DNA of 64,000 nt, taken from Ignavibacteriota bacterium (GTDB lineage Bacteria > Bacteroidota > Ignavibacteria > Tepidaquicellales > OLB5). The text below is the continuation of a report on this DNA, generated by a model with database tools. The stretch spans positions 11-64,010 of the forward strand of contig RPQH01000016.1 of the NCBI GenBank assembly GCA_003820375.1. Reading direction: 5' to 3'. The DNA itself is not shown here.

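What the first reader, a model, noticed from the sequence alone, without database searches (positions are those of the whole stretch)
24462..42211. 17.7 kb supercluster with about 104 haem-binding motifs: candidate complete, uncharacterised extracellular electron-transfer system
Sixteen co-directional, tightly packed or overlapping minus-strand genes. They encode 8 c-type cytochromes with 5, 14, 4, 15, 18, 20, 9 and 19 CXXCH/CXnCH motifs (my count). They also encode three FdnI/HydC-like b-type cytochromes, a Tat-exported 4-cluster FeS protein, an NrfD-type membrane subunit, and a predicted outer-membrane beta-barrel. Every compartment needed to move electrons from the quinone pool to the cell exterior is represented in one locus. 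These are several alternative inner-membrane quinol-oxidising modules, long periplasmic multihaem 'wires', a barrel, and a lipoprotein cytochrome. I saw no CXXCK motif (NrfA) and no molybdopterin subunit (ACIII, Psr, Ttr). That argues against the well-known enzyme systems that use NrfCD-type modules. The redundancy of inner-membrane entry points is reminiscent of the Geobacter Cbc/ImcH logic, but the gene set and order are different.
Basis: partly seen in the sequence, partly recalled or inferred. Interest (0 to 1): 0.85.

Follow-up and report, generated by a model that had tools for sequence, protein, structure and literature searches.

The report, continued
Best explanation
This is a sigma-54-controlled, modular gene island for extracellular electron transfer in an uncultured Ignavibacteria bacterium. 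It most likely serves anaerobic respiration of insoluble or extracellular acceptors such as Fe(III)/Mn(IV) minerals, humics, electrodes or partner cells.

Inferred electron path.
1. Menaquinol is oxidised at the inner membrane by up to three kinds of entry module.
   a. Split CbcL-type units. An FdnI/HydC-like dihaem cytochrome b (g13, g12, g10) pairs with a multihaem c-type cytochrome. Two of these partners (g14 with 19 haems, g11 with 9) are held by a C-terminal helix, in the way FdnH is held next to FdnI. The third (g9) is anchored at its N-terminus.
   b. NrfH/NapC-anchored 18- and 20-haem cytochromes (g8, g9), whose periplasmic parts are built from OcwA/NrfA-like modules and act as long wires.
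   c. An NrfD-NrfC-15-haem module (g5-g7) of the NetBCD/Hmc/Qrc type.
2. Electrons pass to a c554-type tetrahaem cytochrome (g4).
3. They cross the outer membrane through a porin-cytochrome complex. The 14-haem g2 is threaded through the 24-strand barrel g3 and meets the lipoprotein cytochrome g1 at the surface.
4. They reach a nine-haem OcwA-like cytochrome. After haem attachment in the periplasm (ccm genes are nearby), this protein is exported and surface-anchored by the type IX secretion system.

Core and accessory parts. The core is the regulator, the T9SS cytochrome and g15, g14, g13, g8, g4, g3, g2 and g1. The accessory, exchangeable entry modules are g12-g9 and g7-g5. They plausibly tune the system to acceptors of different redox potential.

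What is shown: gene content, motifs, folds, domain homologies, conserved synteny and the conserved promoter-like motif.

What is inferred: all protein-protein contacts, localisation, the direction of electron flow and the physiological acceptor.
For: - Motif counts and the shuffle control.
- Family assignments.
- Invariant His ligands in the b cytochromes and an end-to-end FdnI alignment.
- C-terminal transmembrane helices on g11 and g14, and their fusion to cytochrome b in L015 and L005.
- The fused 19-haem Ignavibacteria proteins are already classified as CbcL/MtrH/MtoC homologues.
- The g8/g9 family carries an NrfH-like N-terminus plus an OcwA-like module. OcwA is a characterised surface terminal reductase (PMC6703420).
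- The barrel model and the lipoprotein Cys conserved in orthologues.
- The architecture matches the published I. album Pcc cluster (PMC4245776).
- Synteny with identical haem counts in L003, L012, L013 and L016.
- The T9SS nine-haem cytochrome and the sigma-54 regulator are conserved next to the cluster.
- The sigma-54-like motif is present in 6 of 6 loci.
- ccm genes lie nearby in the window, L012 and L016.
- All cytochromes have enough non-motif His for bis-His ligation. In the g9 family, 18 conserved haems are matched by 15 conserved His plus 3 conserved Met, which argues for electron transfer rather than catalysis.
- Context from the literature: M. roseus reduces Fe(III) (PMC3534657), and Ignavibacteria are enriched on anodes and with Fe(III) dosing (PMC7399161; PMC11495043).
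Against: - There is no experimental evidence for this cluster type in any Ignavibacteria. I. album, which carries the porin-cytochrome module, is reported not to reduce solid Fe(III)/Mn(IV) oxides (PMC4245776).
- No sequence-level homology to MtrB or any solved porin. Homology to Geobacter Omb/Oma/Omc, Ext, CbcL or ImcH could not be tested directly because no reference sequences were available.
- OcwA-like and NrfA-like modules can be catalytic. OcwA reduces nitrite and hydroxylamine slowly.
- In this window the regulator and the T9SS cytochrome are separated from the cluster by four unrelated ORFs (about 5.6 kb).
- The -12 element of the promoter motif is non-canonical in the window.
- The match between the T9SS cytochrome and OcwA rests on a short best stretch.
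- The direction of electron flow cannot be read from sequence.
Confidence: 0.62

Rival explanations
1. The same hardware runs in reverse. The island takes up electrons from Fe(II), cathodes, reduced humics or a syntrophic partner (direct interspecies electron transfer) and delivers them to the quinone pool. The CbcL-type and NrfCD-type modules then act as quinone reductases.
For: CbcL/MtrH/MtoC homologues occur in both Fe(III) reducers and Fe(II) oxidisers, and no sequence feature distinguishes the direction (PMC6295460). CbcBA and porin-cytochrome conduits are proposed to run inward in syntrophic sulfate reducers (bioRxiv 2022.11.23.517749). I. album carries the porin module but is reported not to reduce solid Fe(III) oxides.
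Against: Cultured relatives are organoheterotrophs, and M. roseus respires Fe(III). Ignavibacteria were enriched on anodes and by Fe(III) dosing. The closest characterised relatives of the surface cytochrome (OcwA, and the C. ferrireducens undecahaem cytochrome) are terminal reductases. No autotrophy or Fe(II)-oxidation markers are visible in the window.
Confidence: 0.15
2. The NrfA/OcwA-like cytochromes (g8, g9 and the T9SS cytochrome) are enzymes for soluble or colloidal substrates such as nitrite, hydroxylamine, sulfite, polysulfide, selenite/tellurite or arsenate. On this reading the island is a periplasmic and surface reductase system rather than a mineral-respiration wire.
For: The family profile matches NrfA and OcwA, and Foldseek lists MccA, octahaem nitrite reductase and HAO after OcwA. 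Some homologues carry Pfam Cytochrom_C552, and one is named 'ammonia-forming cytochrome c nitrite reductase' by NCBI. OcwA reduces nitrite and hydroxylamine. There are weak NCBIfam hits to the selenite/tellurite Ext operon proteins ExtS, ExtN and ExtO. Pcc clusters occur in S0- and selenate-respiring bacteria.
Against: There is no CXXCK motif. All named-enzyme models score far below their cut-offs. The conserved distal-ligand budget in the g9 family fits 18 six-coordinate haems. An outer-membrane barrel plus threaded cytochrome plus surface lipoprotein cytochrome is not needed for substrates that enter the periplasm. OcwA's nitrite turnover is very low (kcat 1 per min).
Confidence: 0.1
3. There is no single system. 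The block is a chance or selfish juxtaposition of independent respiratory modules (CbcL-like units, NrfCD unit, porin-cytochrome unit) that serve different pathways and merely cluster in a cytochrome-rich island.
For: The NrfCD/15-haem module changes position (L012), is replaced by a Rieske/cytochrome b module (L013) or is absent (L016). g12-g9 are absent in L016. L015 has the inner-membrane genes without a nearby porin module. A 414-nt repeat-filled gap and a hairpin separate g5, g4 and g3. L003 has a second sigma-54-like motif in front of its NrfCD module.
Against: The core set (regulator, T9SS cytochrome, g15, g14, g13, g8, g4, g3, g2, g1) stays together in the same order in L016, and with insertions in the window, L003, L012 and L013. 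Gene overlaps indicate co-translation within modules. One conserved promoter motif precedes the first gene in all six loci.
Confidence: 0.1

Closest known systems
Porin-cytochrome (Pcc) gene cluster of Ignavibacterium album JCM 16511, IALB_1837-1840 (Shi, Fredrickson and Zachara 2014, PMC4245776), and OmbB-like PCCs reported in Ignavibacteria MAGs (PMC7399161, PMC6137239)
   Same: [quoted passage not shown] The class is the same and the status is the same (predicted only).
   Different: Direct sequence orthology to the IALB proteins could not be computed here. The published description stops at four genes. It does not cover the upstream CbcL-like, NrfH-OcwA and NrfCD modules, the sigma-54 regulator or the T9SS cytochrome.
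Geobacter sulfurreducens OmaB/OmbB/OmcB and ExtABCD-type porin-cytochrome conduits
   Same: Three-part logic: a periplasmic multihaem cytochrome, a barrel smaller than MtrB, and a surface lipoprotein cytochrome. g1 also carries the Geobacter-type CX4CH/CXXCH domain.
   Different: Haem counts differ (14 and 5 here, against 8 and 12 in OmaB/OmcB). About 24 strands are modelled here. PMC4245776 places the I. album proteins outside its five phylogenetic groups, as only distantly related. No homology test against Geobacter sequences was possible here.
CbcL (GSU0274) and the CbcL/MtrH/MtoC family of inner-membrane quinol oxidases/quinone reductases; also CbcBA
   Same: A multihaem c-type domain is coupled to a HydC/FdnI-like dihaem b domain. 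g11 has CbcL's nine haems. The 19-haem form is listed in the family for two Ignavibacteria MAGs. Fused versions occur in L015 and L005.
   Different: In the window the two halves are separate genes, as in CbcBA. There are three b-type paralogues. One of them (g10) pairs with an NrfH-anchored 20-haem protein rather than a C-terminally anchored one. The potential-specific role shown for Geobacter is untested here.
NetBCD of Aeromonas hydrophila, and the HmcABC, NhcABC and QrcABCD modules of sulfate reducers (multihaem cytochrome + NrfC-like FeS + NrfD-like membrane subunit with no catalytic subunit)
   Same: A three-gene unit (15-haem cytochrome, Tat-exported four-cluster FeS protein, NrfD protein) with no molybdopterin or NrfA partner. 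An equivalent NrfCD pair was proposed to feed Fe(III) reduction in M. roseus (PMC3534657).
   Different: None of the curated models (NrfC/D, DsrO/P, HmcB/C, QrcC/D) reaches its cut-off; DsrO comes closest at 193 against 200 bits. The cytochrome has 15 haems (by my recollection NetB has 5 and HmcA 16; not checked here). The module is dispensable in relatives.
OcwA of Thermincola potens (PDB 6I5B) and the S-layer undecahaem cytochrome of Carboxydothermus ferrireducens (PDB 6QVM; I take it to be OmhA, an identification not confirmed in the paper I read)
   Same: These are the best solved relatives of both the T9SS nine-haem cytochrome and the internal modules of g8/g9. They share NrfA-like haem packing with a three-helix bundle. 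OcwA also has nine haems and is a cell-surface terminal reductase.
   Different: Those proteins sit on Gram-positive cell walls or S-layers. Here the relative carries a T9SS sorting domain in a diderm. In g8/g9 the module is fused behind an NrfH-type membrane anchor and duplicated. Identity is low (15-21% in structural alignments).
MtrCAB of Shewanella, with type II secretion-dependent surface display of MtrC/OmcA
   Same: The overall logic matches: an inner-membrane quinol dehydrogenase, a periplasmic relay, a cytochrome threaded through a barrel, and a surface cytochrome that needs a dedicated secretion system.
   Different: No family membership. The decahaem models score 17-88 bits against a cut-off of 192. 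The barrel has no MtrB signature. Export would be by T9SS rather than T2SS.

Membership tests
Porin-cytochrome (Pcc) trans-outer-membrane complex | [quoted passage not shown] | tested here: met
   g3, g2 and g1 are contiguous (gaps +14 and -23 nt). Signal peptides, a lipobox Cys and haem counts of 14 and 5. The arrangement is conserved in L012, L013 and L016.
Porin-cytochrome (Pcc) trans-outer-membrane complex | The porin-like protein forms a transmembrane beta-barrel wide enough to hold a cytochrome | tested here: met
   The AlphaFold2 model has pLDDT 81, pTM 0.70 and 24 strands. Foldseek matches only outer-membrane barrels, and 24-strand ushers give the best query TM-score. Occupancy by g2 was not modelled.
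Porin-cytochrome (Pcc) trans-outer-membrane complex | Sequence homology to Geobacter OmbB/OmaB/OmcB or to I. album IALB_1837-1839 | not tested
Only the published description was compared. Pfam and NCBIfam have no model that hits g3.
Porin-cytochrome (Pcc) trans-outer-membrane complex | Demonstrated electron transfer across a membrane, or a reduction phenotype on deletion | not testable with these tools
   Needs proteoliposome or genetic experiments.
MtrCAB / MtoAB / PioAB | MtrA/DmsE-type decahaem cytochrome and MtrB/PioB-type barrel | tested here: not met
   The TIGR03508 decahaem model (DmsE family) gives 17-88 bits in the cluster's cytochromes, against a cut-off of 192. g3 has no family hit, and its profile finds no PDB sequence, MtrB included, at E<=10. 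MtrB is not among the top 50 fold matches.
CbcL / MtrH / MtoC inner-membrane cytochromes | Multihaem c-type periplasmic domain combined with a HydC/FdnI-like dihaem b-type membrane domain with conserved His ligands | tested here: met
   Ni_hydr_CYTB hits for g10, g12 and g13. Full-length alignment to FdnI; five His invariant in 12 sequences, four of them aligning with the FdnI ligands as I recall them. Adjacent c-type partners have a C-terminal transmembrane helix. Fused forms occur in L015 (897 aa, 19 haems) and L005 (637 aa, 9 haems). The 19-haem, 6-transmembrane-helix Ignavibacteria proteins are listed as family members in PMC6295460 Table S2.
CbcL / MtrH / MtoC inner-membrane cytochromes | Both domains in a single polypeptide | tested here: not met
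   In the window the c-type and b-type parts are separate ORFs (g14/g13 gap 14 nt; g12/g11 overlap 4 nt). This resembles the two-gene CbcBA arrangement.
CbcL / MtrH / MtoC inner-membrane cytochromes | Direct sequence similarity to G. sulfurreducens CbcL (GSU0274) | not tested
ImcH | About 490 aa, three N-terminal transmembrane helices, about 7 CXXCH including an atypical CX3CH, NapC/NirT-like core | tested here: not met
   The Ignavibacteria and M. roseus ImcH homologues in PMC6295460 Table S3 are 488-498 aa with 7 motifs and 3 transmembrane helices. No protein in 24462-42211 has that architecture. g8 and g9 have one transmembrane helix and 18 or 20 haems.
NetBCD / NrfBCD-type quinol dehydrogenase module | NrfD-family membrane subunit, NrfC-like Tat-exported four-cluster FeS subunit and a multihaem cytochrome, with no catalytic subunit | tested here: met
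   Pfam NrfD 1.3e-30; Fer4_11 8e-26 with RRQFLR; 15-haem g7 adjacent and overlapping. No molybdopterin or NrfA gene in the cluster.
NetBCD / NrfBCD-type quinol dehydrogenase module | Equivalog-level similarity to NrfC/NrfD (or DsrO/P, HmcB/C, QrcC/D) | tested here: not met
   Scores against cut-offs: NrfC 159/378, NrfD 44/348, DsrO 193/200, DsrP 36/350, HmcB 113/420, HmcC 34/550, QrcC 104/400, QrcD 34/570 bits.
NrfA-type cytochrome c nitrite reductase | CXXCK active-site haem motif and an NrfA-level model score | tested here: not met
   No CXXCK in any cluster protein or in the T9SS cytochrome. No NrfA model appears among the NCBIfam hits. PDB NrfA matches to the g9-family profile are only 1e-4 to 1e-2 and are limited to the helix-bundle region.
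Molybdopterin (CISM) enzymes that use NrfCD-like subunits (Psr, Ttr, Arr) and ACIII | Molybdopterin or ActB-type large subunit encoded with the FeS and NrfD subunits | tested here: not met
   No such ORF lies between 24462 and 42211. TtrB and ArrB models are below cut-off.
OcwA / NrfA-like multihaem superfamily | NrfA-like haem-binding segment followed by a three-helix bundle, detectable by sequence or fold | tested here: met
   g9-family profile against 6i5b gives E 6.3e-22 over about 230 positions. Two high-confidence helix bundles in the model. The top Foldseek matches are 6qvm and 6i5b, but global TM-scores are low (0.16-0.23) because the model is long and multidomain.
OcwA / NrfA-like multihaem superfamily | The T9SS nine-haem cytochrome is an OcwA-type nonahaem terminal reductase | tested here: inconclusive
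   Nine CXXCH as in OcwA. phmmer gives E 5.9e-10 to 6i5b, but the best stretch is only 38 residues. The 6qvm match is 1.2e-5 over 254 residues.
Type IX secretion system cargo | C-terminal sorting domain (Por_Secre_tail / T9SS type A) on a Sec-exported protein | tested here: met
   Por_Secre_tail 32.2 bits (cut-off 27) at residues 615-695, plus FlgD_ig and CHU_C. There is an N-terminal signal-like segment. NCBI names the identical protein 'T9SS C-terminal target domain-containing protein'. Two other T9SS-tailed proteins are in the window. The T9SS machinery genes themselves were not looked for.
Sigma-54-dependent operon | -24 GG / -12 GC promoter upstream, and an enhancer-binding-protein regulator | tested here: inconclusive
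   The motif is present in 6 of 6 loci at -29 to -60. An NtrC-type regulator is conserved. However, the -12 element is TTGT in the window, L003 and L013. A generic 2-mismatch search is not enriched in the window overall (22 found, 28.5 expected).

The most novel reading that the evidence does not exclude
In Ignavibacteria, and perhaps more widely in the FCB superphylum, the terminal step of extracellular respiration is carried out by a haem-loaded, OcwA-like nonahaem cytochrome. This protein would be exported folded through the type IX secretion system and anchored on the cell surface, where it receives electrons from a separate porin-cytochrome conduit. On this reading electrons and the terminal reductase cross the outer membrane by two different machines, the whole system is under sigma-54/NtrC-type control, and the inner-membrane side uses a previously undescribed class of 18-20-haem 'NrfH-OcwA fusion' wires. 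I found no paper containing 'type IX secretion', 'multiheme' and 'extracellular electron transfer' together.
Probability: 0.4. Interest if true: 0.72.

Novelty: new variant of a known kind. Interest (0 to 1): 0.52.

Why it matters
Ignavibacteria are common in aquifers, sediments, hot springs, wastewater plants and anode biofilms. They are repeatedly suspected of iron reduction, yet no component of their pathway has been tested.

This window and its relatives give a concrete, bounded parts list.
- An approximately 10-gene core, with the regulator and a promoter motif.
- Two optional inner-membrane entry modules.

If the T9SS-exported cytochrome is the terminal reductase, two fields that have not been connected would meet: T9SS biology of Bacteroidota and extracellular electron transfer. 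It would also provide a simple marker, an OcwA-like cytochrome with a T9SS tail next to a sigma-54 regulator and a porin-cytochrome module, for predicting electroactivity in FCB-group genomes.

Natural variation in the modules (NrfCD module present, moved, replaced by Rieske/cytochrome b, or absent) offers a comparative test of the idea that redundant quinol oxidases match acceptors of different redox potential, as in Geobacter.

It would also correct misannotations. One homologue of the T9SS cytochrome is named an ammonia-forming nitrite reductase.

Tried and rejected
- Characterised soluble-substrate systems. Nrf, Hao, Psr/Ttr/Arr, ACIII, Dsr, Hmc and Qrc were rejected as identities. There is no CXXCK motif and no molybdopterin subunit, and every NCBIfam equivalog is below its cut-off.
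- MtrCAB membership. Rejected.
- ImcH. Rejected on architecture.
- The sixteenth gene. The 46-aa ORF at 28519-28659, also called by JGI's gene caller, lies in a palindromic repeat element and was rejected as a gene.
- Rfam scan of the whole window. No RNA family found.
- Sigma-70 promoter and intrinsic-terminator scans. Counts are at chance level (67 against 62.9; 16 against 14.2), so they are uninformative. The exception is a strong 9-bp G+C-rich hairpin at 27801-27824 between g4 and g3.
- A generic sigma-54 consensus search with 2 mismatches. Not enriched in the window. Only the cross-locus positional conservation is meaningful.
- Melioribacter multi-omics paper (PMC5492636). It contains nothing on Fe(III) reduction or these genes. 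The I. album genome paper does not discuss the cluster.
- g15. It has no significant family hit, only a weak pseudo-receiver signal.
- First attempt to model g9. Repeated with permitted rows.
- Foldseek on the g9 model. Only weak global scores, so I rely mainly on the profile-sequence result.
- Not used: the representative-library search, the metagenome scan and the viral scans. They return no annotation or context that would change the verdict.
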